Shown piece by piece: positions 5,398-56,902 of a DNA stretch of 64,000 bases; the first letter of the stretch is position 1; every line of letters starts with the position of its first letter. This DNA comes from Alicyclobacillus sp. (lineage in GTDB: Bacteria; Bacillota; Bacilli; Alicyclobacillales; Alicyclobacillaceae), in the NCBI RefSeq assembly GCF_023511815.1, contig NZ_JAIMAV010000002.1, forward strand, positions 7,352 to 71,351. Direction: 5' to 3'. The notes beneath the pieces were generated by a model. The model saw only the letters and a list, made by a program, of their open reading frames with translations. It did no database searches and was not told where the DNA came from. Made by a program: the position numbers and the translations under genes.

Positions 5398-6648
5398 CTA
5401 CGCCTTGTGCCCGTACACCAGGGACCGCACCCGCTCCACCACCGGCCCCTCCCCCTCCAGCATCTCCTTCGGCAAGAACAGCCGGTACTCCGTATCCGGA
5501 ATGAGGGAGCGCACGATGCGCGACTCCCGGCTCAGCTCGCTGATGGATCCATCCGTCTTCAGAATCGGAATGCCCTCTCCGCGGTACACGTAGGCCGCGA
5601 TCGCCGAGGAACGCCCGCACACGTAGTAGTCCGGGTGAAATCCCAGCGCCCGCGCCGCGGTCCGCAACGCGGCCCAGGCGGCGCTGTCCGGTTCCGGACG
5701 CGTGACCGCCGCAAACAACCGGCGGTTGACAAAGCGCCGGGCGAGATCGGCCAAGACCGGATCGTCGCACTTCGTCCAGCGGCGAAACGCGTACAACAGG
5801 GTCGATTCGTCCATCTCCAGATAGGCGGCCACGGACACCCGCCCGCTGTCGACGAACAGCGCCGCCAACGGTTCCGGCATCTCGAGCCCGGCGCCCTGGG
5901 CCCACAGTTCCCCGGCGCGCCGCAGGATCTGCCCGACCAGGACATCGCTGCCGATGGTCACCGGGTGCAGGTACACCTGCGTGTACATGAAGTACCGCGC
6001 CAGAATGTACTGCTCCACCGTGTGCACGGCCTGTTCCTTCAAAACCACCTGACCATCCGCCAGGGTCATGGAGCGAACCAGACGCGCCAGCTCGAACCGG
6101 CCGTACGACACCCCGGTGTGCAGGGCGTCCCGCAACAGATAGTCCATCCGGTCCACGTCCAGCTGACTGGTGATCAGCTGTTGGATCACGGAGTCCGACT
6201 GTTTTTGCAACAGACCCACCAGGTCCACCGCGAAGGTCTCGTCCACCTCATCCAGCAGGCCGCGCAGCTCCGGGTCCTCGAGCAGGATGCGGCGCGTCCA
6301 CTGCTCGTGGTGGACATCGTACACACTCTCGAAGGTGTGCGAGAACGGGCCATGGCCGACGTCGTGCAGGAGGGCGGCCGCCAGGGCGAGTTTTCGATCC
6401 CGCTCGTCGCCCGGCCACCCGCACTCCTGCTCCAGGTGCAACAGGACCCGGCGCATGGTCTCGTACGCCCCCAGAGAATGGGTGAACCGGCTGTGCTCGG
6501 CGCCGTGAAACGTGAGGTACGAGGTTCCCAGTTGATGAATGCGACGGAGCCGTTGCACCGCGGCGGTGTTGATGAGGCGCCAAACCCACGGGTCCTCCAC
6601 CAGCACCTCGTCATGCACCGGGTCCTTCAGCACTTTGTTCGTCCACAT
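5398..6648 (-). CDS. HD domain phosphohydrolase, SAMHD1/YwfO-like dNTP triphosphohydrolase family
   Basis: KVLKDPVH..., QRLRRIHQLG, EHSRFTHSLG and LLHDVGHGPFSH motifs. Start chosen at MWTNK (6648). Confidence 0.85.
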   Translation of the reverse strand: MWTNKVLKDPVHDEVLVEDPWVWRLINTAAVQRLRRIHQLGTSYLTFHGAEHSRFTHSLGAYETMRRVLLHLEQECGWPGDERDRKLALAAALLHDVGHGPFSHTFESVYDVHHEQWTRRILLEDPELRGLLDEVDETFAVDLVGLLQKQSDSVIQQLITSQLDVDRMDYLLRDALHTGVSYGRFELARLVRSMTLADGQVVLKEQAVHTVEQYILARYFMYTQVYLHPVTIGSDVLVGQILRRAGELWAQGAGLEMPEPLAALFVDSGRVSVAAYLEMDESTLLYAFRRWTKCDDPVLADLARRFVNRRLFAAVTRPEPDSAAWAALRTAARALGFHPDYYVCGRSSAIAAYVYRGEGIPILKTDGSISELSRESRIVRSLIPDTEYRLFLPKEMLEGEGPVVERVRSLVYGHKA

Positions 6649-6718
6649 GGGCTTGTCCCCCCGGCGGAAGACAGAAAAAGCCCGGCGGGAGGGCTCCCGC
6701 AAGGCTTCGTCATCCGTG

Positions 6719-7072
6719 TTACTCGCAGGACCCGGGCTGACCGGCCTGCGTCGCGGTGCGAAAACTCGATCCACATCCGCACGTGCTCACGGCGTTCGGG
6801 TTGAGGATGCGAAATCCCTGCCCCGTGATGTCGTCGACGTAATCCACCTCCGAGCCGTCGATGAGGCTCAGGGACTCCGGGTCGACCACCACCAGGACGC
6901 CCTTCAACTCGTAACGGTGGTCCCCCTCCTTGGGGGCGTCGAGCGCCATCCCGTAGCTGAACCCCGTGCAACCGCCCGGCTTGACATACAACCGGAGCGC
7001 GCGCTCGTCCTCGCCGCGCCCATCCATCATCTCGCGCAGTTTGCTGGCCGCGCTGTCGGTCAAGGTCACCAT
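6719..7072 (-). CDS. HesB/IscA family iron-sulfur cluster insertion protein
   Basis: RLYVKPGGCTGFSYG and C-terminal STCGCGSSF motifs. AAAGGAGGGG RBS before the ATG at 7072. Confidence 0.9.
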   Translation of the reverse strand: MVTLTDSAASKLREMMDGRGEDERALRLYVKPGGCTGFSYGMALDAPKEGDHRYELKGVLVVVDPESLSLIDGSEVDYVDDITGQGFRILNPNAVSTCGCGSSFRTATQAGQPGSCE

Positions 7073-7156
7073 CGGAACCCCTCCTTTCACACCGATTATA
7101 CGCCAACCGCGGACACGACGGCGCCTGCTTTATACGCCACCGCCGGCACTGTGCGC

Positions 7157-7633
7157 CTACTGTCGCCCCGCCAGCTCGCGAACCACCGCCAGCACGGCCG
7201 CCGCGTGGCCCTCCACCCTCACCTTGGGAAACACCGCGGCGATGGTCCCGTCCGGGCCAACGACGTAGGTGGTTCGTTCAATGCCAAGGCTGGTTTTTCC
7301 GAACATCGACTTCTCCTTGAGGACGTCGAAAGCTCGGCACATCGCCCCGTCCACGTCCGCCAACAGGGGCATGTTGAGATCGTTTTTCTCCGCAAATTTC
7401 TTGTGCGAAGCCACCGAATCCCGCGAGACGCCGTACACGACGGCGCCGACCTCCGCGAACGCGCCCATGTGATCGCGAAAGTCCCTGGCCTCGTTCGTTC
7501 ACCCAGGGGTGCTGTCCTTCGGGTAGAAGAAAAGAACCGACACCTTCCCCAACAGATCCTCCCGAGTCACCGTCTCGCCGGTGTGAGACTCGACGGAGAA
7601 CTCGGGCACCGCGGCACCCACATCCAGGGGCAC
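7157..7633 (-). CDS. bcp: Bcp-type peroxiredoxin with in-frame TGA (7499-7501) at the peroxidatic-Cys position, codon 45; candidate selenoprotein (alternative: pseudogene or sequencing error)
   Basis: Track ORFs 7499-7870 and 7157-7468 share one frame. The joined product reads VLFFYPKDSTPG-[TGA]-TNEARDFRDHMGAFAEVGAVVYGVS..., matching the Bcp FYPKxxTPGCTxEAxxFRD motif. GTG at 7633 is preceded by GAAGGAGGG. Confidence 0.7.
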
Positions 7634-7754
7634 GGGAATCCCTCCTTCGGCTCGGCGCGCCGACACCGCACCGACCCCCGCCGCGGGCCACCCGGGACGC
7701 CGGTATCTTTCGCGAACGGGCGGTGCGTACGGGGTGTCCGCGGGCGGGCTGGCC

Positions 7755-9209
7755 TCACTCGCGGACGACCTTGATGGTGCGGATCTCCGGATCGTCCGGT
7801 CCTTGCACCGGCAGGCCGGCGCGCAGGTTTTCTTCAATATAATCCAAGTTGTCCTTGGAAACCACCTCACCCGGCAACAGGATGGGAATGCCGGGAGGAT
7901 AGACCATGATCATCTCCGCGATGGTGCGCCCGACCGATTCGTGGAAAGGCACCGACTCCGTCTTGGCGTAAAACGCCTCGCGCGGTGACATCCGAAGTTC
8001 GGGCATCGACGGCACCTTGACCTGCACCGTGCGCTTCCCGATCTGATCCTTGTACGCGGCCGAGATCTTCACCAGGGCGTCCACCAGGCGGAGAATGTCC
8101 TCCCGTTCATCGCCCCAGGAGATCACGCACAGGATGTTGTACAGGTCGCTCAGCTCGACCTCGATGTTGAACTCCTCGCGCAGCATCACCTCGACGTCGT
8201 ATCCGCGGATGCCGAGGTCCTTGACGGAGATGATGAGCTTCGTCGGATCCAGCGCAAACGTGGCGCTGTTGCGCAGAATCTCCTTTCCCGGACAGTACAG
8301 GCCGGGAATCTGGTTGATGCGGCGCCTCGCCTCGTCGGCAAGCCGGATGGCTTTCTCCATGCGTTCACGCCCGTGAAGGGCCAGCTCCTTGCGCGCGGCG
8401 TCCAGCGACGCGAGCAGGAGGTACGAGGTCGAGGTGGTGGTCAACATGCTCATGACCACCTGGACGTGGCGCGGATCGATCCGGCCGCGGCGGACGTTGA
8501 GGACACTCGACTGCGTCATCGATCCGCCGAGTTTATGCACGCTCGTCGCCGCCATGTCGGCCCCCGCCTGCATGGCCGACACCGGCAGGTCCTCGTGAAA
8601 CGCGGTGTGAATGCCGTGCGCCTCATCCACGAGAACGGGCACGTCGTATCGGTGCGCGATCTCGACGATCCGCCGCAGGTCGGCCGCCACCCCGAAGTAG
8701 GTGGGATTGATCACCACCAGCGCCCGGGCGTCCGGGTGCTGAATCAGGGCGTCCTCCACCGTCTCGACCGACAGGCCGTGCATGATCCCCAGTTCCGTGT
8801 CCACCTCGGGATGCAGAAACACCGGATGGGCGCCGGAGAGCATGATGGCCGCCAGGACCGACTTGTGCACGTTGCGCGGCACCAGGATCTTCTCCCCGGG
8901 GCCCACGGTGGCCAGCACCATCGCCATGATGGCGGTGCTGGTGCCCTGCACGGAGAAAAAGGTTTCATCCGCCCCGAAGGCCTCCGCGGCCAACGCCTGG
9001 GCCTCCTTGATGATGCCCGTGGGATTGTGCAGGTCGTCGAGCGGCGCGATGTTGATGAGATCGATGGACAGCGCGTTCTCCCCGATGAACGATTGAAACG
9101 CGGAATGCATCCCGCGGCCGCGCTTGTGCGCCGGGATGTGAAATTGGATCGGATTGCGTTTCGCATGCGCCAACAGGGCGCTGAACAGGGGTGTGTCTTG
9201 TTGGTTCAA
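7755..9209 (-). CDS. speA: Arginine decarboxylase (Orn/Lys/Arg decarboxylase family, PLP-dependent)
   Basis: Near-colinear with remembered B. subtilis SpeA (QFHIPxHKxG, FIGENALSIDLINI, FFSVQGTS, ATSVHKLGGS, LTTTSTSYLLLASLD). TTG start at 9209 with GGGAGGAG RBS. Confidence 0.9.
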   Translation of the reverse strand: MNQQDTPLFSALLAHAKRNPIQFHIPAHKRGRGMHSAFQSFIGENALSIDLINIAPLDDLHNPTGIIKEAQALAAEAFGADETFFSVQGTSTAIMAMVLATVGPGEKILVPRNVHKSVLAAIMLSGAHPVFLHPEVDTELGIMHGLSVETVEDALIQHPDARALVVINPTYFGVAADLRRIVEIAHRYDVPVLVDEAHGIHTAFHEDLPVSAMQAGADMAATSVHKLGGSMTQSSVLNVRRGRIDPRHVQVVMSMLTTTSTSYLLLASLDAARKELALHGRERMEKAIRLADEARRRINQIPGLYCPGKEILRNSATFALDPTKLIISVKDLGIRGYDVEVMLREEFNIEVELSDLYNILCVISWGDEREDILRLVDALVKISAAYKDQIGKRTVQVKVPSMPELRMSPREAFYAKTESVPFHESVGRTIAEMIMVYPPGIPILLPGEVVSKDNLDYIEENLRAGLPVQGPDDPEIRTIKVVRE

Positions 9210-45932: not shown

Positions 45933-48572
45933 TCACGGTGTCAGCGTCCACGTCGCCCGCACCACAGGATGCGATCCCGCTTGACCGCTCGGCGCCGCAT
46001 CCTCCACCCGCCACACGGGACGGTAGCGCCCGTCCCACCACAGCGGGATCCCGTCGTCGTACCAGGGGGAAGCCGGATTCTCGCTCTGTCCGCCCGGATA
46101 GACGCCCTCGGCCCCCGCGCCCCAGTCGACGATGAAGCGCCAGCTCGGCCCCGCCTTCGACACCAGCCCGCCGCTCGCCGCGTCGACCGTCCAGCGGTCG
46201 CCGCCGCTCGGCCGGGGGCCGTACCCCAATGCGGGAATCTGCGCCAACGAGGGGAACTGCCGCGCGTGGAGTCTGCCCCACGTCCAATCCGCGGGTTGGC
46301 CGCCCAATTGCTTGGACAGATCCGCCACCGCCTCGCTGAACGCCTGGCGCATCACGTCCTTCGCGGTCCTCGGCGCGCGCCCCGGCGCCGTGAAGGCGGG
46401 GTTGTTCGGATCGAAGAGGGTCCAGGCCTCCAGGTCCTGGTTGAGCGAGGTCAATCCCGGGCCCACCCGCAGATCCGGATCCTGTTCCACCGGCACGTGG
46501 AGGGCGTCCCACCAGGGTTGGAACGTGTCCGTCAAATAGCGGTTCCAGAACGTCCACCACACGCTGGCCGCCGCCGAGTTGACCGCCATATCCCCGTCCC
46601 ATGTGGACAGCAGGTTCCGGGCGGCCCGCTCCTGTGCGGACAACGCCTGCCCGTCCAAGGCCTGCAGCAGTTTGGGCACCACCCGCTGCGCCAACAGGTC
46701 ATGGGTGTCGTTCTGCAGCGCCTCAAAATCCCGCATCGTCAGCATGCGACCCTTCTCCAGCGCGTCGTGGATCTGGGAGGCGCGGTATCCGGCGTCGAAG
46801 AAGTCCAACGTCGTCCCGATGTAGTAGGGATAGTCCGGTCCCACCTCGCGCTGATTTGCGGAGAACACGATGTGCGTGGGGGGATTGAACACCTGCGGGA
46901 TGTCGTCAAACGGAATCGTCCCGACGATGTCCGACTCTCCGGTCCCCGGCAGAGGCAACCACGGGTCGCCGTTGGGGATGATGGGATAATACCCGGCGGA
47001 GATGAGACCGATGTTCCCCGCGTCGTCCGCGTAGACGAAGTTCTGGGAAGGCGCGTGCCAGTTTTGCAGCGCATCGCGAAATTGCGTCCAATTCTGCGCC
47101 CTCAGCACTCCCAGGAGCACCTGCATGTCCGGCGAGGGCAGCGCCCCAATCCAGTCCACCGACAGCGTCTGACCCTTGGTCGTCATCACGGGCCCGTGAA
47201 CCGTCATCCACACCGTCAGGTGTTCGGGTGCGCGCCCTTTGACGGGGATGTCGTACTCGATCTTTTGCATGTCTCGCCAGGCGCCCTTCCAGTAGTACTG
47301 GTGGGGATGCGCCGAATCCGTCTTCTCTTCGTAGAAGAACGTCGCCTGGTTCTGCACGTTCGTCAGGCTCCATGCGATGTGCTGGTTCTTCCCGATCAAC
47401 ACCACCGGCGTCCCCGGAATGCTGACACCGCTGAAGTCATACGAGGGCGATCTCGCGGCCACCTGGTACCAAATCGCGGGCAGGGTCTGATTCAGGTGCG
47501 GATCGCCCGCCAGCATCGGCTTGCCGGACGCGGTCCGGGTGCCGTCCACGGCCCAGTTGTTGCTGTTCGATCCGTGGTGGATCGCCCCCGCCGGCAGGTC
47601 CTTCAACCGGCCGAGGACATCCAGAATGGCGGTGGTCATCGCCGCCGCCCCGCGCGAGGTGGCGTCCGCCGCAGCGGCCGCGGAGTCCTCCATGCCCGGT
47701 GTCGCCCGCGGCCCCGCCCCGGCGGACGGCGAAGGGGCGAAGGCCTCCTTGGAGAGCGACGCGGGGGTCGCCGTCAGGGACGGCTCCATCGGGGCGGGCG
47801 GATCCTTGCGGTAGGGGCCGGGATCGTACGGATGCTGTGCGTTGGGCGGCAGCACCGGGAACCACGCCATCGTCCGGTCGTAGCCGAGCGACTGCACCAG
47901 CAGGGCGTAGTCGAGCGGCGTCGTGGTGAAATCGAGCGTCTGCGTCATGTCCCCCTGGATGACCAGCGTGTCCACCGGCGTCCACGGCGCGGGTTCGTAC
48001 CCGAGAAGTTTGAACATCATCGGCAGCGTCCCCCGCGCCCGCTCCTCCCGGATGCAGGCGTTCACGCCGTCCGTGTAGGCCAACAGCGCCATGCGGGCGG
48101 GATCGTCCGGCTTCATCTGGTTCCACTCCCGCTCGGCGGTCCGCACAAGACCCAGCTGCAGCTCGAGCTCGTCGGAGGGCAGCGCCTTGGCCCCGACGAT
48201 CTCCGACAGCCTCCCCTCCCCCTGGCGGCGCATCAGATCCATCTGAAACAGGCGGTTTTTCGCGTGCAGATACCCCATCGCCAGGAACAGGTCGTGGTCG
48301 GTTCGGGCGTCGATATACGCGGTGCCCGCCTCGTCAAACCGCACCTGGACCGGCTGCACGAGACCCGGCAGCCGAAGCGCGGTGTCACCGGGCAGCATGG
48401 CGTCGCGAGCCGACGCCCACACCCCTGTCCCCGGGTTGAACGCCGCGCCCAGCGGCGGGAGAGGGCCCGCTCCGAACGCCGCCAGATACACCAGGGATCC
48501 CGTCGCAGCCGCCGCGACCACCACATTCGCCCATCTTCCCATGCGCCGACGCACGCTTGCACCGCCCTCCAC
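45933..48572 (-). CDS. Penicillin acylase family (S45, Ntn-hydrolase) protein
   Basis: DLFLAMGYLHAKNRLFQMD, the GSNSNNWAV (Ser nucleophile region) and GDPHL motifs. Start uncertain (48542, 48554 or 48572). Confidence 0.9.
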   Translation of the reverse strand: MEGGASVRRRMGRWANVVVAAAATGSLVYLAAFGAGPLPPLGAAFNPGTGVWASARDAMLPGDTALRLPGLVQPVQVRFDEAGTAYIDARTDHDLFLAMGYLHAKNRLFQMDLMRRQGEGRLSEIVGAKALPSDELELQLGLVRTAEREWNQMKPDDPARMALLAYTDGVNACIREERARGTLPMMFKLLGYEPAPWTPVDTLVIQGDMTQTLDFTTTPLDYALLVQSLGYDRTMAWFPVLPPNAQHPYDPGPYRKDPPAPMEPSLTATPASLSKEAFAPSPSAGAGPRATPGMEDSAAAAADATSRGAAAMTTAILDVLGRLKDLPAGAIHHGSNSNNWAVDGTRTASGKPMLAGDPHLNQTLPAIWYQVAARSPSYDFSGVSIPGTPVVLIGKNQHIAWSLTNVQNQATFFYEEKTDSAHPHQYYWKGAWRDMQKIEYDIPVKGRAPEHLTVWMTVHGPVMTTKGQTLSVDWIGALPSPDMQVLLGVLRAQNWTQFRDALQNWHAPSQNFVYADDAGNIGLISAGYYPIIPNGDPWLPLPGTGESDIVGTIPFDDIPQVFNPPTHIVFSANQREVGPDYPYYIGTTLDFFDAGYRASQIHDALEKGRMLTMRDFEALQNDTHDLLAQRVVPKLLQALDGQALSAQERAARNLLSTWDGDMAVNSAAASVWWTFWNRYLTDTFQPWWDALHVPVEQDPDLRVGPGLTSLNQDLEAWTLFDPNNPAFTAPGRAPRTAKDVMRQAFSEAVADLSKQLGGQPADWTWGRLHARQFPSLAQIPALGYGPRPSGGDRWTVDAASGGLVSKAGPSWRFIVDWGAGAEGVYPGGQSENPASPWYDDGIPLWWDGRYRPVWRVEDAAPSGQAGSHPVVRATWTLTP

Positions 48573-48728
48573 GTACCAACCGTTTGTTCACTTTCAGTAT
48601 AATCGGTGGATTGGTAAAAGGATAGAGAGAAATGAAACGCCTGCAAGGCCGGGGCGGCGCCGGCGTCGTTTCCTTCCTCCTCGAAAATTGGTATGCTGTG
48701 TCCGAACCATCGCGAGGAGGCCTGCGAC

Positions 48729-50491: not shown

Positions 50492-50520
50492 CGGGCCGCC
50501 GCCCCGGCGGCCCTCCCGCG

Positions 50521-50574
50521 GGACCACGCAAAGGCCCTGGACCACGCAAAGGCGCGGGACCACGCGAAGGCGCG
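50521..50574. repeat. Three tandem 18-nt units (GGACCACGCRAAGGCSCK)
   Basis: Units at 50521-38, 50539-56 and 50557-74, read directly from the sequence. Intergenic. Confidence 0.8.
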
Positions 50575-50582
50575 GGCGCCGA

Positions 50583-50662
50583 CGCGCGTCACCGAGACCC
50601 GTCGGACGCCCTTTGGGAGGCGCGCGCCGCCGCGCGTTACCGGGACCCGTCGGACGCCCTTT
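50583..50662. repeat. 32-nt direct repeat (CGCGCGTYACCGRGACCCGTCGGACGCCCTTT) x2, 48-nt period; the second copy covers the last codons and stop of the small membrane-protein gene
   Basis: Copies at 50583-50614 and 50631-50662 differ at two positions. Confidence 0.75.
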
Positions 50663-50897
50663 TGTTGCGCAGCCATGCGCCGACCCAGCAGCCGAGCCAG
50701 GCGAGCATCACGTACAGCAACACCCACGACCAGAAGGTCAGGCTGAACCACGCCCACAGGGCCGCCAGCGTGCCGAACAGAACCAAGAACGTGCTGAGCC
50801 ACGCCGCCCGCCACAGATAGTACAGAACCAACGGAACGAAAAACGACAGCAGCGGGAACACGCCCGCGATCCACGTCATCACCCATCCGCCGAGCAT
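50637..50897 (-). CDS. Small Trp-rich membrane protein (3 TM)
   Basis: ATG preceded by AAGGGGAG. Three hydrophobic segments. No family recognised. Confidence 0.6.
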   Translation of the reverse strand: MLGGWVMTWIAGVFPLLSFFVPLVLYYLWRAAWLSTFLVLFGTLAALWAWFSLTFWSWVLLYVMLAWLGCWVGAWLRNKRASDGSR

Positions 50898-51076
50898 AGG
50901 ACACTCCCCTTGAAACCGACAGGATTCTCGTCACCGGCGCCCATCCCCGCCAACCCCGACCGATCGCCGCCCAGCCAGCGATTCCCGCCGTCATGACTTC
51001 CAGGCCCCTACACCGTCCATCCCGCGAAGCCCCCGGCCCCCTCATCCCCCAAGCGGCCTTGCATCCGCGGACCCCT

Positions 51077-53113
51077 TCACATGAAGCGGTGCCGCGCCGT
51101 CCGCCGACCGGCTGCCAGTTCCGCCCGAACCGCCGCCAGCAGGGCCGCGGCCACCTCCCCCTCGTGCGCCACCAGGTCTTCCTCCGTCCAACCCCCGGCG
51201 CGGAGGATGGCCAATCCTCTGTCGACCAGCTCCCAGGCGACCCACGGGTTCGGGACCACTTCGCCCAACGTCCGCGCCAGCCGCAGCCGGTTCACGGGGC
51301 CATCCGGCGGCTCCCTCCCCTCAGGGCCGTGAGGGGGCCGCCTGGCTTCATCGGGGAACTCGCTCGGCGAACCGTGCCCGTCGGTCACCGGACGCCCGGT
51401 TCCCGGCGGACGAAGCCGCCCAAGCCCGGAAAGCGCCAGCCCCCGCCCCGAGCTCGGCCCCTCGGGTGTCCACGCCGGCGCAGGCGTGCTCGATCGCGCC
51501 GCCACCGGTCCCTCCCCGGCCTCCCCCGAATCCGGTGCCCGCCGCGCCACCCGTTCCGCTGCCGGCGCATCACGGCGCCGGACCTTCGGGTCGCGGCCGG
51601 TCAGGACGTCGCCTGTTGGAACGCCGATGGAGTCGTGGACGGCGGGATCGTGGCCAGCGGGGCCGGGGCCGGCCGGCGGAGCCGTCGAGACCTGGACCAT
51701 GGCCGCGAGATCGCCAAGACCCTCTCTGGACAGCTCCTCCCGGATGGCAGAGACCAGGTCGCCCGCCTCGCGCCGAAAACAGAACACGTAACTCTCATCG
51801 AGCATCGGGATCCCCGTCTTTTGCACGTACGGCTGACGCAGGATCCGGCCGACCAGCTGCGTCATCGCGATCGCGGAGGAAGGGTTCGTCAGGACCGTCA
51901 ACACATACGCGAACGGGCAGTCCCACCCCTCCTGTAGGGCCTGTCTGGTGATGATGAACCGCACCGGACAGCTGCGCGCGAGCAGGTCCATGCCCTCGAT
52001 GTCGTCCCGCTCGCTCGACTTGACCGCAATCTGGTCCCGCGGAACGCGATGCGTGTGCACCAGCTCCCAGACCACGTCGTCGGCGTGGATGCGCCCGCTG
52101 GTCCGCTGATCCCGGCCGGTTCGCTCCACCTGGATCAGGCAGATGGGGCGGATGTACCGTCCGGATGCCGCCTCGAACTGCCGGGCGGCCTCCTCCAACC
52201 GGGCGCGCCACCGCACGCTCTCGGCGAGCGCGTCCTGCCAGTGCGGACCCGGCGCGTTCACCACGTGCAGGTCGAGTTTCACCATCTGCTCGGCCAAAAG
52301 TTCCCGCCCCGAGACACGGACGAGCACCGGGCTGCGCGCGGGCGGTGTCGCCGACAGCTCCACCATCAGGCTCGGATTGAAATTTAGGAGGGTCCGCTGC
52401 GCCCCCGCGCTGTACGCCCGCTGTCCTTCGTCGAGGATGAGCAGGGGTTCCGCCATGCGCAGCACATTGCCGAGCGAGGTTTTCACCTGCACCCCGAGCG
52501 GATCCTCCAACGACCCGTGGTGATCCAGGTTGGGCCAGCGTTCCAACAGGCGCCGGTGCGCGGGCCCGTCCCACTCCGGCGGAAAAAACGGCTCCCACCC
52601 GCCCTGATCTTGAAACAATCGCAGCGTCCGCCCATCGCGCCGGTTCGCCGACGGCAGCATCAACACCAGGATCACCAGCTGCTCCGCCAGATCAAGCGGA
52701 TGAAAGCGATCCGTCTTCTCCACCACCCGCACGCGTCCGCCGGTGGTCACATCCAGAAACTGGCGGTAGGGGTGCCCCCGGTCCCGCAGGGCCGCGAGCG
52801 TCTGCCGATAGATGCATCGGGTGGGCACCACCCAGAGCACGAGGCCCGTGCGCCGCCCCAAATAGAGGCGTTGCGCGAGGTCCATCACCCGCACGGCCAG
52901 GTACGTCTTGCCGCCGCCCGTCGGCAGCTGGATGCAAAACGCGGGCACCGGACGGCCCGACCCGGTTCGTCTTGGCCGATGCGGGGCGTCCGACACCGCC
53001 CGCCAGGCCCGCTCCACGAAATCCGGTCCGCCATCCCGCTCGGCCGCCAGCGCGCGCAGATACCGCTCCACAGCGTGCAGTGCCCGCGTCTGGTACGCCT
53101 TGAGCGGCATCAT
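51077..53113 (-). CDS. ResIII/DEAD-box superfamily-2 helicase, Type III restriction Res-like, with no recognisable endonuclease domain
   Basis: QLPTGGGKT (motif I), LILDEGQRA (motif II), LSATP (III), QALQEGWDCP and LVGRILRQP (VI). ATG overlaps the mod stop (ATGA at 53110-53113). C-terminal part is Pro/Gly/Arg-rich. Confidence 0.85.
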   Translation of the reverse strand: MMPLKAYQTRALHAVERYLRALAAERDGGPDFVERAWRAVSDAPHRPRRTGSGRPVPAFCIQLPTGGGKTYLAVRVMDLAQRLYLGRRTGLVLWVVPTRCIYRQTLAALRDRGHPYRQFLDVTTGGRVRVVEKTDRFHPLDLAEQLVILVLMLPSANRRDGRTLRLFQDQGGWEPFFPPEWDGPAHRRLLERWPNLDHHGSLEDPLGVQVKTSLGNVLRMAEPLLILDEGQRAYSAGAQRTLLNFNPSLMVELSATPPARSPVLVRVSGRELLAEQMVKLDLHVVNAPGPHWQDALAESVRWRARLEEAARQFEAASGRYIRPICLIQVERTGRDQRTSGRIHADDVVWELVHTHRVPRDQIAVKSSERDDIEGMDLLARSCPVRFIITRQALQEGWDCPFAYVLTVLTNPSSAIAMTQLVGRILRQPYVQKTGIPMLDESYVFCFRREAGDLVSAIREELSREGLGDLAAMVQVSTAPPAGPGPAGHDPAVHDSIGVPTGDVLTGRDPKVRRRDAPAAERVARRAPDSGEAGEGPVAARSSTPAPAWTPEGPSSGRGLALSGLGRLRPPGTGRPVTDGHGSPSEFPDEARRPPHGPEGREPPDGPVNRLRLARTLGEVVPNPWVAWELVDRGLAILRAGGWTEEDLVAHEGEVAAALLAAVRAELAAGRRTARHRFM

Positions 53114-54762
53114 CCGCCATCCCCCCGCACCTGGAAGAGGGCGTAAGGCAGCTGGGCGAACTCGACGCCGGCGGCCTCCAGAAGCGCATCGTCCACCCAT
53201 CGGGCGGGCGCGAACACCACGCGGCGGCGCCATCCCGGCGGACCGAGCATGCGCAGGTATTCCGGCGTGATGGACAGCGACTTGAGGATCTCCAGGTCCG
53301 GCTCGTAGACCAGATAGACCTCGGCATCGCGCCCCGCTCCGATGAAGCCCCGGCGCCGGTCCATCGCCTCCGGCCGGAACGGCTCGCCCGTCGCCGTGTG
53401 AAACACGTAGCGGGCCAGCTCCTCATAGGCGGGCAGCGTCCGGCCCGAAAGCAACCCCTCCGGGTCAAGGGGCGCTCCGACCCGGTAGAACGAGAACGAC
53501 CCGCCCGTCCCGCGCCGCAGCGTCTCGTCGTGTGCCTCCGGCACTCCCCGGATGACGCGCCGGACCCGCTCCGCCGTGATGGTGTCCGCGTAGGCCTCCA
53601 TCTCCATCAGGATGAAGCGGCGGCACCCGCCGTCCGCCCGATTCAGGTCAAGCACCGCGTGAGCGGTCGTTCCGGACCCGGCGAACGCGTCGAGCACGAT
53701 GACGTCGGGGCGGGCGGTGGCGAATCGGATGAGGCGCTGAATCAACGCGACCGGCTTCGGATTGTCGAACACCCGGCCGCCCAGGATCTGCGCCGCCTGG
53801 TGATGCCCGGTCGGGCGCAGGTCGGTCCACAGATTGCTGAGCAACGGGCGCCGCCCCGGTGGGATGTAGTGCTCCGGCATCCCGGTCGCGGACAGGCGCA
53901 ACAGGTCCACCGGTTGGCCGGTCCGCTGCACTTCCTCGAGGTACCATCGGTCGATGTTCTCCTGTGTGACCGGCAATCCCTGTTCCCCAAGGTCCGAGAG
54001 CATCCGCTCGTAGTTCCGGATGGCCTGAAGGCTTCGCGCCTCCGCCCAGCGCCACTGCCCCCGCTCGGGCGTGATGCCGAATAGCGGATAGCGCATCGTC
54101 GGCCGGTCCGTGCCCCGCCAGTGCCGGTTCCACCCGCCGGGCCGCGGGTCCTCCTCGTCCGCGTGGACTTTCTGAAAGCGCACATCCGGATTCCGCGAGT
54201 ACACCAGAATGGACTCGTAGCCGTTGGACAGGGCGCCGATGGTGTCGAACTGCGCCTGCACGTTCTTCGCGCCGCGCCGGACGACGATGGTGTCGCGGTA
54301 ATTCTCCTCGCCGAAGACCTCATCCATCAGGCACCGCAGGTGGTGGATCTCGTTGTGGTCGATGCTGACAAAGATCACCCCGCCCGGCGCAAGCAGCTCC
54401 CGCAGCAGCCGGAGGCGCGGCATCATCATGCACAGCCACTTGTCGTGGCGCGACAGATCGTCGCGGTCCACCACCCGGCCGAGCCACGCCTTCAGCATGG
54501 GTGCGTTGACATTGTCGTTGTACACCCACGACTCGGTGCCCGTGTTGTACGGCGGATCGATGTACACCACGTCGACGCGTTCCCGGTACTGCGGGAGCAG
54601 CGACTTGAGCGCCGCCAGGTTGTCCCCGTGGATGATCAAGTTGTCCTCGAGACACACCCGATCCGTCAAACTCCGCTCCGGCACCGGGATGAGTTCGTGG
54701 AAGGGCACGGTGAGGTGATGGCTCTGAACAAACGATTTCCCTTTGAATTGAAGCGTCGGCAT
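53110..54762 (-). CDS. Site-specific DNA methyltransferase, beta-class (Type III Mod-like; DPPY implies N6-adenine or N4-cytosine)
   Basis: Motif IV IDPPYN precedes motif I DAFAGSGTT (beta-class order). GGAGGAG RBS 7 nt before the ATG at 54762. Confidence 0.9.
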   Translation of the reverse strand: MPTLQFKGKSFVQSHHLTVPFHELIPVPERSLTDRVCLEDNLIIHGDNLAALKSLLPQYRERVDVVYIDPPYNTGTESWVYNDNVNAPMLKAWLGRVVDRDDLSRHDKWLCMMMPRLRLLRELLAPGGVIFVSIDHNEIHHLRCLMDEVFGEENYRDTIVVRRGAKNVQAQFDTIGALSNGYESILVYSRNPDVRFQKVHADEEDPRPGGWNRHWRGTDRPTMRYPLFGITPERGQWRWAEARSLQAIRNYERMLSDLGEQGLPVTQENIDRWYLEEVQRTGQPVDLLRLSATGMPEHYIPPGRRPLLSNLWTDLRPTGHHQAAQILGGRVFDNPKPVALIQRLIRFATARPDVIVLDAFAGSGTTAHAVLDLNRADGGCRRFILMEMEAYADTITAERVRRVIRGVPEAHDETLRRGTGGSFSFYRVGAPLDPEGLLSGRTLPAYEELARYVFHTATGEPFRPEAMDRRRGFIGAGRDAEVYLVYEPDLEILKSLSITPEYLRMLGPPGWRRRVVFAPARWVDDALLEAAGVEFAQLPYALFQVRGDGG

Positions 54763-54861
54763 CCCGCCACTCCTCCGGCACCGGGTAGCCTTTCGGCCGT
54801 CCCCGCCTTTCGGCTGGCCCCTGGCCTCAGATCCCTTCTCGCATCCGTGGCTTGTAATAGG

Positions 54862-54890
54862 ATTGTATCCGTTTGCAGAATTCGGGACAA
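54862..54890 (-). promoter_or_regulatory. SigA-type promoter candidate for mod-res (-35 TTGTCC, 17 bp, -10 TACAAT)
   Basis: AT-rich island about 100 nt upstream of the mod ATG and downstream of the fad operon terminator. Confidence 0.45.
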
Positions 54891-54935
54891 CGGCCCCTCG
54901 TCCGTCGCTCCATCCGCCGAGTCCTCAAAGGAGCG

Positions 54936-54973
54936 TAAAAAGGCCGTGTCCACGAGGATGTCGTGGACACGGC
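54936..54973 (-). terminator. Rho-independent terminator of the fadN-fadA-fadE operon (13-bp perfect stem then CTTTTT on the minus strand)
   Basis: GCCGTGTCCACGA-ggatg-TCGTGGACACGGC at 54943-54973, preceded on the plus strand by AAAAAG. Confidence 0.8.
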
Positions 54974-55129
54974 GCAGGTTCTCACACCCCATCACGGGCC
55001 CGGCGACAGCCGGTGCGCCTCCATTCGCAGAACCGGGGCCCGGCGTCCGACGCACAGGCCACAGGTGCGGTGCAGAGGCCGGGGGCCGACGGCTTGATCC
55101 TGAGGATGGCCCGGGGTCATCCAGGCCCG

Positions 55130-56902
55130 TCAGGCCTGGTACGCCTCCGCCTCCAGCACCCGCTGGGCGATGCGGCGTTTGATCAATTTCTGATTGACCG
55201 GCTGCACCCGGGTCAACTTGCGCAGGACCGCCAGCTGCGTGCGCAGGGTGTCGCCCTCCTCCATCGCGGAGAGCACCCGCTTCGCCCGGGCTTCGATGCG
55301 GTCGAACGCCTCCCGGGCGTACACCTGGACCATGTCGACCTTGTTGGTCGCATCCTGCCCCTTCTCGAGGGCCTTCTTTGTCCGCAACAACGCGCTCTCG
55401 AGGGCGTAGATCTCGATGATGATGTCCGCGAGATCGGAGAGGATCTCCTGCTCCTCCTTGAGCGCCTGCATGTATTTCTGCACCGCGAGCCCGCCCGTGA
55501 ACAGGAACACCTTTTTCGCCATCTCGAGGATGTGGGTCTCCGCACCGAGCGGCGCCGACTCATCCGGCAGCGGGAGCATGCCCATCAGCTCCTGCTGCAG
55601 CCCCTGGGCGGCCTGCATCAGCGGCAGCTCGCCCTTGAGCGCCTTGCGCAGGAGCATGTCGGGGATGAGCAGCCGGTTGATCTCATTGGTCCCTTCGAAG
55701 ATACGGTTGATGCGCGAGTCGCGGTACATGCGTTCAATCGGGTACTCCTGGATGAATCCGTATCCGCCGTGAATCTGAACCCCCTCGTCCACGACGAAGT
55801 CGAGGGCCTCGGACGCGTACACCTTGTTGACCGAGCATTCCAGCGCGTACTCCGCGATGGCCTTGGCGGCGCTGGCGCCGTCCACCCGGCCGCCGAGGGA
55901 TTCCAACTGCCGGTCGATGTCGCCCGTCGCCCGATACGCCATGCTCTCGGTGACGTAGCCGCGGATGTTCATGTCGGCGATCTTCTGTTGGATCAGCGGG
56001 AAGTTGGCAATCGGCGTGCCGAACTGTTTGCGCGACTTCGCGTAGCGCACCGCCGTCTGCAGCGCCGCCTTGATCCCGCCGACGCACCCCACCGCGAGCT
56101 TGTAGCGGCCGATGTTCAGGATGTTGAAGGCAATCAGGTGGCCCTTGCCCGGCTCACCCAGCAGATTCTCGACCGGCACCGGCACGTCCTCGAGGATCAG
56201 CGGCCGGGTCGAGGACGCCTTGATGCCCATCTTCTTCTCCTCCGGCCCGGTGGAGACACCCGGGAAGCTACGCTCGACGATGAACGCCGAGAACTTCTCC
56301 CCGTCAATCTTCGCGTACACCACGAACACATCGGCGAATCCGGAGTTGGTGATGAACTGCTTCGTCCCGTTGAGGATGTAGAACTTGCCGTCCTCCGACA
56401 GCCGGGCGGTGGTCTTGGCACCGAGCGCGTCCGATCCGGAGCCCGGTTCGGTCAGCGCGTAGGCGGCGATCCACTCGCCGGACGCCAGCTTCGGCAGATA
56501 TTTGCGCCGCTGGGCGTCATTGCCGAAGAACACAATCGGCAGCGTGCCGATGCCCGTGTGCGCCCCGTGGCTGAGGGCGAACGAACCGCCCCAGGTCATG
56601 TTCTCCGCAATCAGCGCGGAGCTGACCTTGTCGAGTCCGAGCCCGTCGTACTCCTCCGGCACGTCCGCGGCGAGCAGCCCCAGTTCGCCCATCTTGCGCA
56701 ACAGCTGCACCGTCAGCTCCCAGTCCTGATGCTCCAGGCGCTCCTGGTTGGGTTGAACCTCGTTTTGCACGAACGACCGCGTCGTCTCCGCAATCATCTG
56801 ATGTTCCTGGGTGAAATCCTCCGGGGTGAAGACGTCGGACGGCGCCGCCGTCTCAATGAGGAACGCTCCGCCCTTGGTCAGCTTCTTCTCCTCCGTCGCC
56901 AT
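55130..56902 (-). CDS. fadE: Acyl-CoA dehydrogenase (long form, YusJ/FadE-like)
   Basis: ACAD motifs (ALTEPGSGSD, GEPGKG) and a roughly 590-aa long-form architecture. AAGGAGGAA RBS. Confidence 0.92.
   Translation of the reverse strand: MATEEKKLTKGGAFLIETAAPSDVFTPEDFTQEHQMIAETTRSFVQNEVQPNQERLEHQDWELTVQLLRKMGELGLLAADVPEEYDGLGLDKVSSALIAENMTWGGSFALSHGAHTGIGTLPIVFFGNDAQRRKYLPKLASGEWIAAYALTEPGSGSDALGAKTTARLSEDGKFYILNGTKQFITNSGFADVFVVYAKIDGEKFSAFIVERSFPGVSTGPEEKKMGIKASSTRPLILEDVPVPVENLLGEPGKGHLIAFNILNIGRYKLAVGCVGGIKAALQTAVRYAKSRKQFGTPIANFPLIQQKIADMNIRGYVTESMAYRATGDIDRQLESLGGRVDGASAAKAIAEYALECSVNKVYASEALDFVVDEGVQIHGGYGFIQEYPIERMYRDSRINRIFEGTNEINRLLIPDMLLRKALKGELPLMQAAQGLQQELMGMLPLPDESAPLGAETHILEMAKKVFLFTGGLAVQKYMQALKEEQEILSDLADIIIEIYALESALLRTKKALEKGQDATNKVDMVQVYAREAFDRIEARAKRVLSAMEEGDTLRTQLAVLRKLTRVQPVNQKLIKRRIAQRVLEAEAYQA

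What the first reader, a model, noticed from the sequence alone, without database searches (positions are those of the whole stretch)
51300..51690. Res-like helicase has a low-complexity Pro/Gly/Arg stretch where Type III Res enzymes carry their nuclease
Seen in sequence: after helicase motif VI and about 40 further residues, the protein becomes roughly 130 aa of low complexity (STAPPAGPGPAGHDPAV...RRRDAPAAERVARRAPDSGEAGEGP...GRLRPPGTGRPVTDGHGSPSEFPDEARRPPHGPEGREPPDGP). It then ends in about 74 aa that look folded (VNRLRLARTLGEVVPNPWVAWELVDRGLAILRAGGWTEEDLVAHEGEVAAALLAAVRAELAAG, 51077-51299). I could not find a PD-(D/E)xK-like motif here or in the other frames of this stretch. Established knowledge: canonical Type III Res (for example EcoP15I) carries a C-terminal PD-(D/E)xK endonuclease that is essential for cleavage. 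Inference, two readings. (a) The restriction half has decayed, and the frame stays open only because GC-rich DNA rarely generates stops, leaving an effectively orphan MTase. (b) It is a nuclease-less MTase-helicase module that acts through a different effector or the unknown C-terminal domain.
Basis: partly seen in the sequence, partly recalled or inferred. Interest (0 to 1): 0.65.

Follow-up and report, generated by a model that had tools for sequence, protein, structure and literature searches.

The report
Type III Res helicase lacking nuclease
A restriction-modification gene pair in a hot-spring Alicyclobacillus relative has lost the DNA-cutting domain of its Res protein, yet related lineages have kept the methylase and the Res motor intact, so the pair probably no longer cuts DNA and serves some other purpose, most likely methylation.

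Summary
Residues 477-604 of a 678-aa Res-like helicase (window 51302-51685, minus strand) are Pro/Gly/Ala/Arg-rich and predicted disordered. They are followed by about 70 helical residues, and no PD-(D/E)xK motif occurs in any frame.

The placement of the nuclease is wrong. Relatives are about 840 aa, and their putative nuclease (invariant D...ExK) lies after the helical segment. It does not lie where the low-complexity stretch is. The window protein stops right after that segment, so the nuclease domain is absent. The low-complexity stretch replaces a roughly 100-aa middle domain.

The same truncated form sits at the same chromosomal site, between an acyl-CoA dehydrogenase gene and a DUF2651 gene, in Alicyclobacillus macrosporangiidus. 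More distant Alicyclobacillus have an empty site there.

After the truncation the helicase stayed under purifying selection (dN/dS 0.13-0.21), as did Mod (0.11-0.19) and, more weakly, the C-terminal helices (about 0.3). The low-complexity linker is relaxed (about 0.5, many in-frame indels).

"Decayed, open by chance" therefore fits only the linker. The pair is a conserved nuclease-less Mod-translocase module. It most likely methylates without restricting, and Res may be kept because Mod needs it. It is a variant of a known kind, of moderate interest.

The parts
53110..54762 (-). mod: Type III beta-class amino-methyltransferase, 550 aa, apparently intact (DPPY at VVYIDPPYNTG, FxGxG at DAFAGSGTT)
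   Evidence: Pfam N6_N4_Mtase E 8e-34. PADLOC MTase_III PDLC03644 matches profile positions 1-539 of 542. It is 76% identical to the A. macrosporangiidus orthologues with dN/dS 0.11-0.19. The N- and C-terminal domains are close to the Mod that partners a full-length Res in A. herbarius, and only the central recognition region differs.
51077..53113 (-). res: truncated Type III Res, 678 aa plus stop; the ATG overlaps the mod stop (ATGA)
   Evidence: The PADLOC REase_III model PDLC03653 is matched only at profile positions 71-520 of 883, whereas the full-length relative P0004 matches 70-878. The best structural match of the model is EcoP15I Res 4zcf_C, E 8.5e-12.
51686..53113 (-). SF2 helicase/translocase core (aa 1-476): Walker A PTGGGKT, DEGQ box, SATP, QxxGRxxR
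   Evidence: Every column that is invariant across the 43-sequence alignment, which includes the window protein, lies in this part apart from two, including the helicase motifs. pLDDT is mostly 85-98. dN/dS is 0.20 to A. macrosporangiidus and 0.13 between the two A. macrosporangiidus lineages. 182 of 193 highly conserved family columns are unchanged.
51302..51685 (-). Low-complexity, disordered linker (aa 477-604) standing where relatives have a roughly 100-aa middle domain
   Evidence: Composition and pLDDT <50. It is 29% identical to the orthologues, with net length differences of 81 and 105 nt, both multiples of three. dN/dS is about 0.5 in the close pair. No other frame matches the middle domain.
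51398..51442 (-). Short island inside the linker (aa 558-572, GRGLALSGLGRLRPP), a possible remnant of the family's YEMD..RIxW element
   Evidence: pLDDT is about 81 for residues 561-570. It aligns with LAALGQIRW of A. macrosporangiidus and with YEMDLVxRIxW of full-length relatives. The homology is weak: the in-frame score is about 2 sd above shuffles.
51080..51301 (-). C-terminal helical segment (aa 605-678, VPNPW motif). It corresponds to the helical element that precedes the nuclease domain in full-length relatives
   Evidence: tblastn E down to 2e-9 against full-length relatives. N622 is invariant and P621, P623 and W624 nearly so. Four helices with pLDDT 72-92. dN/dS is 0.3-0.39. Every other protein that matches it through this motif continues into a PD..ExK domain.
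54862..54890 (-). Promoter-like site (TTGTCC-17-TACAAT) upstream of mod
   Evidence: Consensus scan only: 1 site found against 0.2 expected.
54943..54973 (-). Terminator-like hairpin (13-bp stem plus T run) after the acyl-CoA dehydrogenase gene. It marks the upstream edge of the inserted mod-res unit
50637..50897 (-). DUF2651 small membrane protein gene, the downstream boundary of the insertion. It is not part of the system
   Evidence: Synteny. In relatives without mod-res it directly follows the acyl-CoA dehydrogenase gene.

Best explanation
This is a Type III restriction-modification operon (mod, then res, translationally coupled) that entered the chromosome between the acyl-CoA dehydrogenase and DUF2651 genes in the common ancestor of the window organism and Alicyclobacillus macrosporangiidus.

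**Shown.**
- Res lost its whole C-terminal domain, the one that carries the family's invariant D...ExK signature. The ORF now ends just after the helical VPNPW segment.
- The roughly 100-aa middle domain between helicase and helices has degenerated into an indel-rich, disordered Pro/Gly/Ala/Arg linker.
- The Mod methyltransferase, the Res helicase core and, more weakly, the C-terminal helices have stayed under purifying selection since then.

**Inferred.**
- The truncation was a 3' deletion.
- The product is a Mod2-Res(translocase-only) complex. It still recognises its site, methylates it and hydrolyses ATP, but cannot cut DNA.
- It works as a chromosomal methylation module without restriction.
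- The Res motor is kept because Mod depends on it for stability or activity. Two Type III systems from thermophiles are reported to need it this way.
- The linker acts only as a flexible tether that keeps the C-terminal helices attached.
For: **Architecture.**
- Of the 120 best homologues, nearly all are 817-859 aa. Only the window protein and two A. macrosporangiidus proteins (670 and 662 aa) are complete short forms.
- The alignment places the window's last 74 aa on the VPNPW helices of relatives. Those relatives continue for about 170 aa with invariant E716, D755, E776 and K778 in P0004 numbering.
- That domain is predicted as alpha-beta-beta-beta-alpha-beta, with D before one strand and ExK at the end of the next.
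- Its best structural matches are PD-(D/E)xK nucleases, though weakly.
- In 80 species genomes, 75 relatives are at least 780 aa and 73 of those carry the E[TSM]KG motif. The only complete short one is A. macrosporangiidus.
- No remnant of the missing parts exists in the window.

**Orthology and age.**
- The gene order is identical in the window and three A. macrosporangiidus-type contigs: thiolase, ACAD, mod, res, DUF2651, LysM/3D, nfo.
- The site is empty in three more distant Alicyclobacillus lineages.

**Selection.**

| Region | dN/dS |
|---|---|
| Helicase | 0.13-0.21 (p = 1e-26 against neutrality) |
| Mod | 0.11-0.19 |
| C-terminal helices | 0.3-0.39 (p = 6e-5 and 0.04) |
| Linker | about 0.5 |

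- Helicase motifs are intact.
- The ATGA mod/res overlap is conserved.

**Precedents.**
- An engineered EcoP15I Res 1-705 without the endonuclease domain keeps ATPase and DNA binding (PMC3333885).
- M.DthLIII and M.FnoB1III methylate only when Res is co-expressed (PMC8259958).
Against: - No methylome, expression or biochemical data exist for this organism or for A. macrosporangiidus in what I could reach.
- Whether this Mod needs Res is untested. I could not establish whether DthLIII and FnoB1III Res belong to the same roughly 840-aa subfamily.
- In EcoP15I the endonuclease domain contributes to Mod binding (PMC3333885), so a truncated Res might bind Mod poorly.
- The truncated clade shows somewhat more changes at highly conserved helicase columns (9-11 of 193) than full-length members do (mean 3.9). 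The window lineage is slightly faster than A. macrosporangiidus (40 against 23 unique changes, p about 0.03 with some outgroups). This is compatible with partial relaxation.
- The nuclease assignment of the family's C-terminal domain rests on motif, topology and weak fold matches (Foldseek E >= 0.14). There is no Pfam hit and no profile match to the EcoP1I nuclease.
Confidence: 0.55

Rival explanations
1. It is a nuclease-free defence or DNA-surveillance module. The Mod-Res complex still detects unmethylated sites and uses its ATP switch to slide on DNA. It acts by obstruction, or by recruiting a separate effector through the conserved C-terminal helices.
For: - The helicase and C-terminal helices are under purifying selection.
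- The helices are kept in frame despite linker indels.
- Other Res relatives sit in defence islands, for example A. herbarius with Mrr, an integrase and an AAA_13/SMC-like gene.
Against: - No candidate effector is present. The neighbours are housekeeping genes conserved in synteny, and they are also adjacent in genomes that lack mod-res.
- PADLOC matches only Type III R-M models.
- The Mod recognition region is conserved between lineages (68-85% identity) and is not diversifying. The locus is chromosomal and vertically inherited. Both features look more like domestication than arms-race defence.
Confidence: 0.2
2. The restriction half is simply dead. Res is a non-functional relic, Mod is effectively an orphan methyltransferase, and the res frame is open because GC-rich DNA rarely makes stop codons.
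For: - The nuclease domain is gone.
- The linker is relaxed and decaying, and more so in the window than in A. macrosporangiidus.
- Three of six frames are stop-free in the linker, and P(open by chance) is about 0.22.
- There are slightly more changes at conserved helicase positions.
- Res truncations that remove the endonuclease domain are known in Haemophilus and Neisseria phasevarions (PMC1976455).
Against: - Helicase dN/dS is 0.13 between two lineages that both carry the truncation (35 non-synonymous against 85 synonymous differences, p = 1e-26) and about 0.2 to the window copy at dS about 0.95.
- 476 helicase codons have no stop or frameshift in four copies.
- All motif residues are intact.
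- The C-terminal helices are retained in frame.
Confidence: 0.1
3. It is a split enzyme. The nuclease domain is encoded by a separate gene elsewhere in the genome and joins the complex in trans, so restriction is retained.
For: - The conserved C-terminal helices could be a docking surface.
- The representative search returned a 267-aa protein (P0122) that consists of only the helical segment plus the PD..ExK domain. It may be just a fragment.
Against: - Nothing like the nuclease domain exists in the 64-kb window or next to the truncated res in the three A. macrosporangiidus-type loci.
- The rest of these genomes could not be searched.
Confidence: 0.08
4. It is an artefact. A sequencing or assembly frameshift makes a normal Res look truncated, and the low-complexity stretch is an out-of-frame translation.
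For: Pro/Gly/Arg/Ala-rich translations are typical of wrong frames in GC-rich DNA, and the codon-position GC signal is flat in the stretch.
Against: - No other frame matches the family's middle domain.
- There is no DNA for a nuclease domain downstream. The DUF2651 gene starts 180 bp after the stop.
- Independent metagenome contigs agree without gaps.
- Three independent genome assemblies of the sister species have the same architecture.
Confidence: 0.02

Closest known systems
Canonical Type III R-M enzymes (EcoP15I/EcoP1I; Mod2Res1)
   Same: - The gene order is mod then res.
- Mod is a beta-class enzyme with DPPY and FxGxG motifs.
- Res has an SF2 helicase core whose best structural match is EcoP15I Res (4zcf_C, E 8.5e-12). 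Profile homology to EcoP1I Res has 92% probability.
- A helical element follows the helicase, as the helical spacer does in EcoP15I (PMC4490356).
   Different: - There is no endonuclease domain.
- The family is only distantly related to EcoP15I (about 840 aa against 970 aa, with sequence similarity confined to helicase motifs).
- The region between helicase and C-terminal helices is disordered low-complexity sequence.
The widespread roughly 840-aa Res family (PADLOC REase_III PDLC03653), e.g. Alicyclobacillus herbarius P0004
   Same: - It is 51-62% identical over the helicase.
- It has the same VPNPW helical segment.
- The partner Mod has very similar N- and C-terminal domains.
   Different: Full-length members have a folded middle domain (FEGKxYLPxF...YEMD...RIxW) and a roughly 170-aa C-terminal D...ExK domain. 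The window protein has neither.
Phasevarion-type Type III systems with truncated res (Haemophilus influenzae 86-028NP, Neisseria modA11; PMC1976455)
   Same: The C-terminal endonuclease domain of Res is lost while Mod stays active. The system shifts from restriction to methylation only.
   Different: - Those are recent strain-level frameshifts in phase-variable systems of host-adapted pathogens, and what remains of res is regarded as inactive.
- Here mod has no simple-sequence repeat.
- The truncation is old: it is shared across lineages at dS of about 0.9.
- The remaining helicase is under clear purifying selection.
Engineered EcoP15I Tr-domain enzyme (Mod + Res 1-705; PMC3333885)
   Same: Res is reduced to its translocase part. 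In that construct ATPase activity and DNA binding persist and cleavage is impossible.
   Different: It is a laboratory construct, and its Tr domain dissociated from Mod at high salt. The natural protein keeps an extra helical C-terminal piece.
Res-dependent Type III methylation (DthLIII, FnoB1III; PMC8259958)
   Same: Both come from thermophile hosts. That work gives a documented reason for selection to keep Res for methylation rather than restriction.
   Different: Those Res proteins carry a PD-(D/E)xK motif. Their relationship to this subfamily was not tested. Those systems make m4C, and the base modified here is unknown.

Membership tests
Type III restriction enzyme, Res subunit | SF2 helicase/ATPase core with Walker A, DExx box, motif III and motif VI | tested here: met
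   - Pfam ResIII E 3e-10.
- PADLOC REase_III E 6e-125.
- Motif residues are invariant.
- The fold is closest to EcoP15I Res.
Type III restriction enzyme, Res subunit | C-terminal PD-(D/E)xK endonuclease domain | tested here: not met
   - The ORF ends after the helical segment.
- The PADLOC profile is matched only to position 520 of 883, against 878 for a full-length relative.
- There is no remnant in any frame.
Type III restriction enzyme, Res subunit | Adjacent, co-oriented Type III Mod (beta-class amino-methyltransferase) | tested here: met
   - The mod gene lies at 53110-54762(-).
- PADLOC MTase_III matches over its full length.
- DPPY and FxGxG motifs are present.
- An ATGA overlap joins it to res.
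Type III restriction enzyme, Res subunit | ATP-dependent cleavage requiring two inversely oriented unmethylated sites | not testable with these tools
   This needs biochemistry. Cleavage is predicted to be absent because the catalytic domain is absent.
Phasevarion (phase-variable Type III Mod with inactive Res) | Simple-sequence repeat tract in mod that causes ON/OFF switching | tested here: not met
   Tandem Repeats Finder finds only two weak two-copy repeats (13 and 17 bp) in 53000-55200 and no repeat tract.
Phasevarion (phase-variable Type III Mod with inactive Res) | res inactivated by frameshift or truncation | tested here: inconclusive
   The endonuclease domain is lost, as in H. influenzae 86-028NP (PMC1976455). 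However, there is no frameshift, and the remaining helicase has dN/dS 0.13-0.21.
Res-dependent Type III methyltransferases (DthLIII/FnoB1III type) | Mod is inactive unless Res is co-expressed | not testable with these tools
   The only support is indirect: Res is retained under selection although it cannot cut.
BREX / DISARM (methylase-plus-helicase defence without a classical restriction nuclease) | Signature genes (PglZ/PglX/BrxC, or DrmA/DrmB/DrmC) in the same locus | tested here: not met
   PADLOC matches only REase_III and MTase_III models. The neighbours are fatty-acid oxidation genes, DUF2651, LysM/3D and nfo.

The most novel reading that the evidence does not exclude
The Res motor of a Type III system has an essential job other than restriction. 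Here it has been stripped down to that job, giving an ATP-driven translocase that partners a methyltransferase. It may be an obligatory activator of methylation, or a non-cutting sensor of unmethylated DNA that signals through its conserved C-terminal helices. This module would then be a natural minimal system for separating the motor function of Type III enzymes from cleavage.
Probability: 0.25. Interest if true: 0.6.

Novelty: new variant of a known kind. Interest (0 to 1): 0.4.

Why it matters
Loss of the Res nuclease in Type III systems is known, but as recent strain-level inactivation where res is written off as dead. Here the truncated Res has been inherited vertically through speciation with its helicase, its coupling to mod and its C-terminal helices under selection. 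That argues that the Type III motor does something useful without cutting.

This connects to the unexplained report that some thermophile Type III Mods methylate only when Res is present. It offers a natural nuclease-free complex in which that dependence, or a non-cutting role of ATP-triggered sliding, could be tested.

It also gives annotators a practical rule. In this roughly 840-aa family the nuclease is the last 170 residues, so the length of res, not the presence of a ResIII domain, tells whether the system can restrict.

Tried and rejected
**1. Hidden frameshift.**
- tblastn with the post-helicase parts of 11 full-length relatives against all frames of the window found only the helical segment.
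- Translating the A. macrosporangiidus linker in the other two frames gave scores of 31-53, inside the shuffle range (47 ± 9).
- A DNA-level MAFFT alignment suggested a compensated 5/11-nt gap pair. I do not trust it, for that reason.

**2. Sequence-based proof that the family's C-terminal domain is a nuclease.**
- No Pfam family was found for 20 members at E <= 5.
- phmmer and hmmsearch against PDB sequences hit only helicase regions.
- hhalign of the C-terminal profile against EcoP1I Res gave a meaningless match (probability 0.5%).
- Foldseek gave only weak hits (E >= 0.14), though the top ones are PD-(D/E)xK nucleases.
- The assignment therefore rests on the invariant E...D...ExK pattern and the predicted topology.

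**3. Fusion of the 74-aa C-terminal segment to other partners.**
- An exhaustive phmmer search of 1.84 billion representatives gave five hits.
- These were the orthologue, two Res C-terminal fragments that continue into PD..ExK, and two Ala-rich multi-stretch matches that I take to be spurious. I did not fetch the sequences of those last two.
- No new partners were found.

**4. Tandem repeats as the cause of low complexity.** Only trivial two-copy repeats were found, so the stretch is compositionally biased and not repetitive.

**5. An intermediate form.** I looked for a full-length Res at the same chromosomal site in sister lineages. The three lineages examined have an empty site instead.

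**6. The window organism's species.** It is not among the GTDB representatives. The nearest is A. macrosporangiidus, and the sequence occurs in hot-spring metagenomes.
Full report
**What is in the window.**
- On the minus strand a 550-aa methyltransferase gene (mod, 53110-54762) is followed by a helicase gene (res). The long ORF listed as 51077-53233 really starts at MMPLK, with its ATG at 53113 overlapping the mod stop as ATGA. This gives 678 aa.
- Mod matches Pfam N6_N4_Mtase and a PADLOC Type III methyltransferase model over its full length (positions 1-539 of 542).
- Res matches Pfam ResIII.
- Res matches the PADLOC Type III restriction-enzyme model PDLC03653 only over profile positions 71-520 of 883.

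**Check of the observation.**
- Coordinates 51300-51690 correspond to residues about 475-605.
- Residues 477-604 are 66% P+G+R+A+S and 12% hydrophobic, against 39% and 33% in the helicase part. Entropy is lower.
- The DNA there is 77.6% G+C, and the GC3>>GC2 periodicity seen across the helicase disappears.
- There is no meaningful tandem repetition.
- An AlphaFold model built with 43 aligned sequences gives high confidence for the helicase and pLDDT below 50 for 484-557 and 573-601.
- The same model shows a small island near 558-572 and four confident helices at 609-673.
- So both the low-complexity stretch and the folded-looking last 74 residues are real.
- Metagenome contigs from hot-spring samples cover 51038-51640 without gaps, so the stop codon and the stretch are not assembly errors.
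Three of six frames have no stop in the stretch, and a random 128-codon frame of this composition stays open with probability about 0.22.

**Where the nuclease belongs.**
- A search of 5.8 billion proteins found thousands of relatives, and nearly all of the best 120 are 817-859 aa. Apart from four shorter entries (two annotated partial, two on short contigs), only the window protein and two Alicyclobacillus macrosporangiidus proteins (670 and 662 aa, 61-65% identical) are short.
- In the alignments the full-length family has four parts:
  - a helicase of about 476 aa;
  - a middle domain of about 100 aa (FEGKxYLPxF...YEMD...RIxW);
  - a helical segment with an almost invariant VPNPW motif;
  - a last domain of about 170 aa with invariant N712, E716, D755, E776, K778 and G779 in P0004 numbering (...YPDF...VxETKG...).
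- A model of that C-terminal part (pLDDT 78) shows an alpha-beta-beta-beta-alpha-beta unit. The Asp lies just before one strand and ExK at the end of the next.
- Its best structural matches are PD-(D/E)xK nucleases (a hantavirus cap-snatching endonuclease, TnsA, R2 restriction-like endonuclease), but only weakly (E >= 0.14).
- Pfam and sequence profiles do not recognise the domain.
- The order helicase, helical spacer, endonuclease is also that of EcoP15I (PMC4490356).
- The window's last 74 residues align with the VPNPW helices (tblastn E to 2e-9), and the ORF stops a few residues after them.
- So the nuclease is not replaced by the low-complexity stretch. It is missing from the end, and the stretch replaces the middle domain.
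- Nothing resembling either missing part is found in any frame of the 64-kb window.
- In 80 species-representative genomes with a relative, 75 ORFs are at least 780 aa and 73 of those have the E[TSM]KG motif. Of the five short ORFs, three run off contig ends, one looks broken, and the only complete one is A. macrosporangiidus.

**History of the locus.**
- The A. macrosporangiidus copies lie in the same gene order as the window: 3-hydroxyacyl-CoA dehydrogenase, thiolase, acyl-CoA dehydrogenase, mod, res, DUF2651, LysM/3D, nfo, penicillin amidase.
- A fourth copy from a metagenome has the same arrangement up to the contig end, just inside DUF2651. It is 98.8% identical to one of them.
- Flanking housekeeping proteins are 91-94% identical to the window's, with dS of about 0.7.
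- In three more distant lineages the acyl-CoA dehydrogenase gene is followed by DUF2651 (or, in strain SO9, by LysM/3D) with no mod-res between them. These are a metagenomic one, Alicyclobacillus sp. SO9 and A. contaminans, with ACAD 80-82% identical.
- The pair was therefore inserted once in the ancestor of this small clade.
- All copies end at the same place in the alignment, next to DUF2651. The truncation is therefore most simply a single ancestral event.
- A terminator-like hairpin after the dehydrogenase gene and a promoter-like site upstream of mod fit an independent transcription unit.
- By contrast, the full-length relative in A. herbarius sits among an integrase, an Mrr nuclease and an SMC-like ATPase.

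**Selection after the truncation.** I computed Nei-Gojobori estimates on codon alignments.

| Region | dN/dS | Note |
|---|---|---|
| Helicase core | 0.20-0.21 window to A. macrosporangiidus; 0.13 between the two A. macrosporangiidus lineages | 35 non-synonymous against 85 synonymous differences, Fisher p = 1e-26; both lineages carry the truncation |
| Mod | 0.11-0.19 | |
| C-terminal helices | 0.3-0.39 | p = 6e-5 and 0.04 |
| Linker | about 0.5 in the close pair | only 29% identical to the window copy |

- The linker spans (EGLGDL to VPNPW) are 483, 402 and 378 nt long, all multiples of three.
- The linker is more degenerate in the window than in A. macrosporangiidus. The latter still shows LAALGQIRWEHVTLASIRNLRPL, which resembles the family's YEMD..RIxW....L element.
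- The window protein shares every column that is invariant across the 43-sequence alignment, including the helicase motifs.
- The truncated clade has somewhat more changes at highly conserved helicase columns (9-11 of 193 against a mean of 3.9). The window lineage is slightly faster. Some relaxation is therefore possible.
- The Mod recognition region is 68-85% identical between the lineages, so the specificity is probably shared.
- Mod carries no repeat tract.

**Interpretation.**
- The reading "decayed and open by chance" holds only for the linker.
- The helicase, its translational coupling to mod and the helical tail have been maintained. This is a nuclease-less Mod-translocase module.
- What it does is inferred. 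An EcoP15I Res cut down to residues 1-705 keeps ATPase and DNA binding (PMC3333885). Loss of the Res endonuclease domain accompanies the shift of Haemophilus and Neisseria Type III systems to methylation-only roles (PMC1976455). Two thermophile Type III methyltransferases were active only when Res was co-expressed (PMC8259958).
- I therefore favour a chromosomal methylation module without restriction, in which the Res motor is kept because Mod needs it. The linker would serve as a flexible tether.
- Less likely alternatives are:
  - a non-cutting defence or sensing role, possibly through a partner of the C-terminal helices;
  - a nuclease supplied in trans from elsewhere in the genome, which I could not search;
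  - a relic still decaying;
  - an artefact, which the data exclude.

**Comparison and novelty.**
- The protein is homologous to Type III Res. Its best structural match is EcoP15I Res (E 8.5e-12), and profile homology to EcoP1I Res is 92%.
- It fails the defining nuclease feature, so it should not be annotated as a restriction endonuclease.
- It differs from phasevarion-type truncations in three ways: it is old, it is not phase-variable, and its helicase is under selection.
- It is not BREX or DISARM.
- I rate it a new variant of a known kind, of moderate interest.

Noticed in passing
window 50519-50576: An 18-bp unit (CGGGACCACGCAAAGGCC) is repeated 3.2 times in the short gap between the convergent DUF2651 and LysM/3D genes. 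Its function is unknown, and it may be part of a shared terminator region.
   Followed up: no
window 50898-51076: There is a 180-bp spacer between the res stop and the DUF2651 start. In A. macrosporangiidus the two genes overlap instead, and the last residues of Res differ (RRTARHRFM against ...SHDGRWKDPCSRDG). The 3' junction has therefore been remodelled since the lineages split.
   Followed up: partly
window 51594-51667: One hot-spring metagenome contig (run X4) appears to skip 72 nt (24 codons, in frame) inside the low-complexity stretch. Support is weak: one contig, with 26 letters on the shorter side. If real, it is a population-level in-frame length variant of the linker.
   Followed up: no
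window 54862-54973: A strong terminator-like hairpin (54943-54973, 13-bp stem plus T run) follows the acyl-CoA dehydrogenase gene. It is followed by a promoter-like TTGTCC-17-TACAAT site (54862-54890) upstream of mod.
   Followed up: no
L088 7852-8023; L089 10773-11755; L090 10773-11187: The more distant Alicyclobacillus lineages have an empty site. The acyl-CoA dehydrogenase gene is followed directly by DUF2651 or LysM/3D, without mod-res. In L088 the 170-bp intergenic region contains a hairpin-like GC-rich palindrome.
   Followed up: partly
L004 4033-13229: The closest full-length relative (A. herbarius, 838 aa) lies in what looks like a mobile defence island. That island carries an Mrr-type nuclease, a tyrosine integrase and an 845-aa SMC/AAA_13-like ATPase immediately downstream.
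   Followed up: no
L079 (Chloroflexia MAG), match 6001-7946: A relative whose ORF is only 549 aa, with no recognisable start and not at a contig end. It is probably a frameshifted pseudogene, the ordinary kind of res decay, unlike the window case.
   Followed up: no
window 53114-53233: The ORF extends 40 codons upstream of the real start (MAPPRGVRARPMGG...). That part overlaps the end of mod in another frame and lacks coding GC3 periodicity. It is not part of the protein.
   Followed up: yes
L002 12302-13258 vs L003 and window 48572-48693: An M23 peptidase gene lies between nfo and the penicillin amidase gene in one A. macrosporangiidus strain. It is absent from the other strain and from the window.
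   Followed up: no
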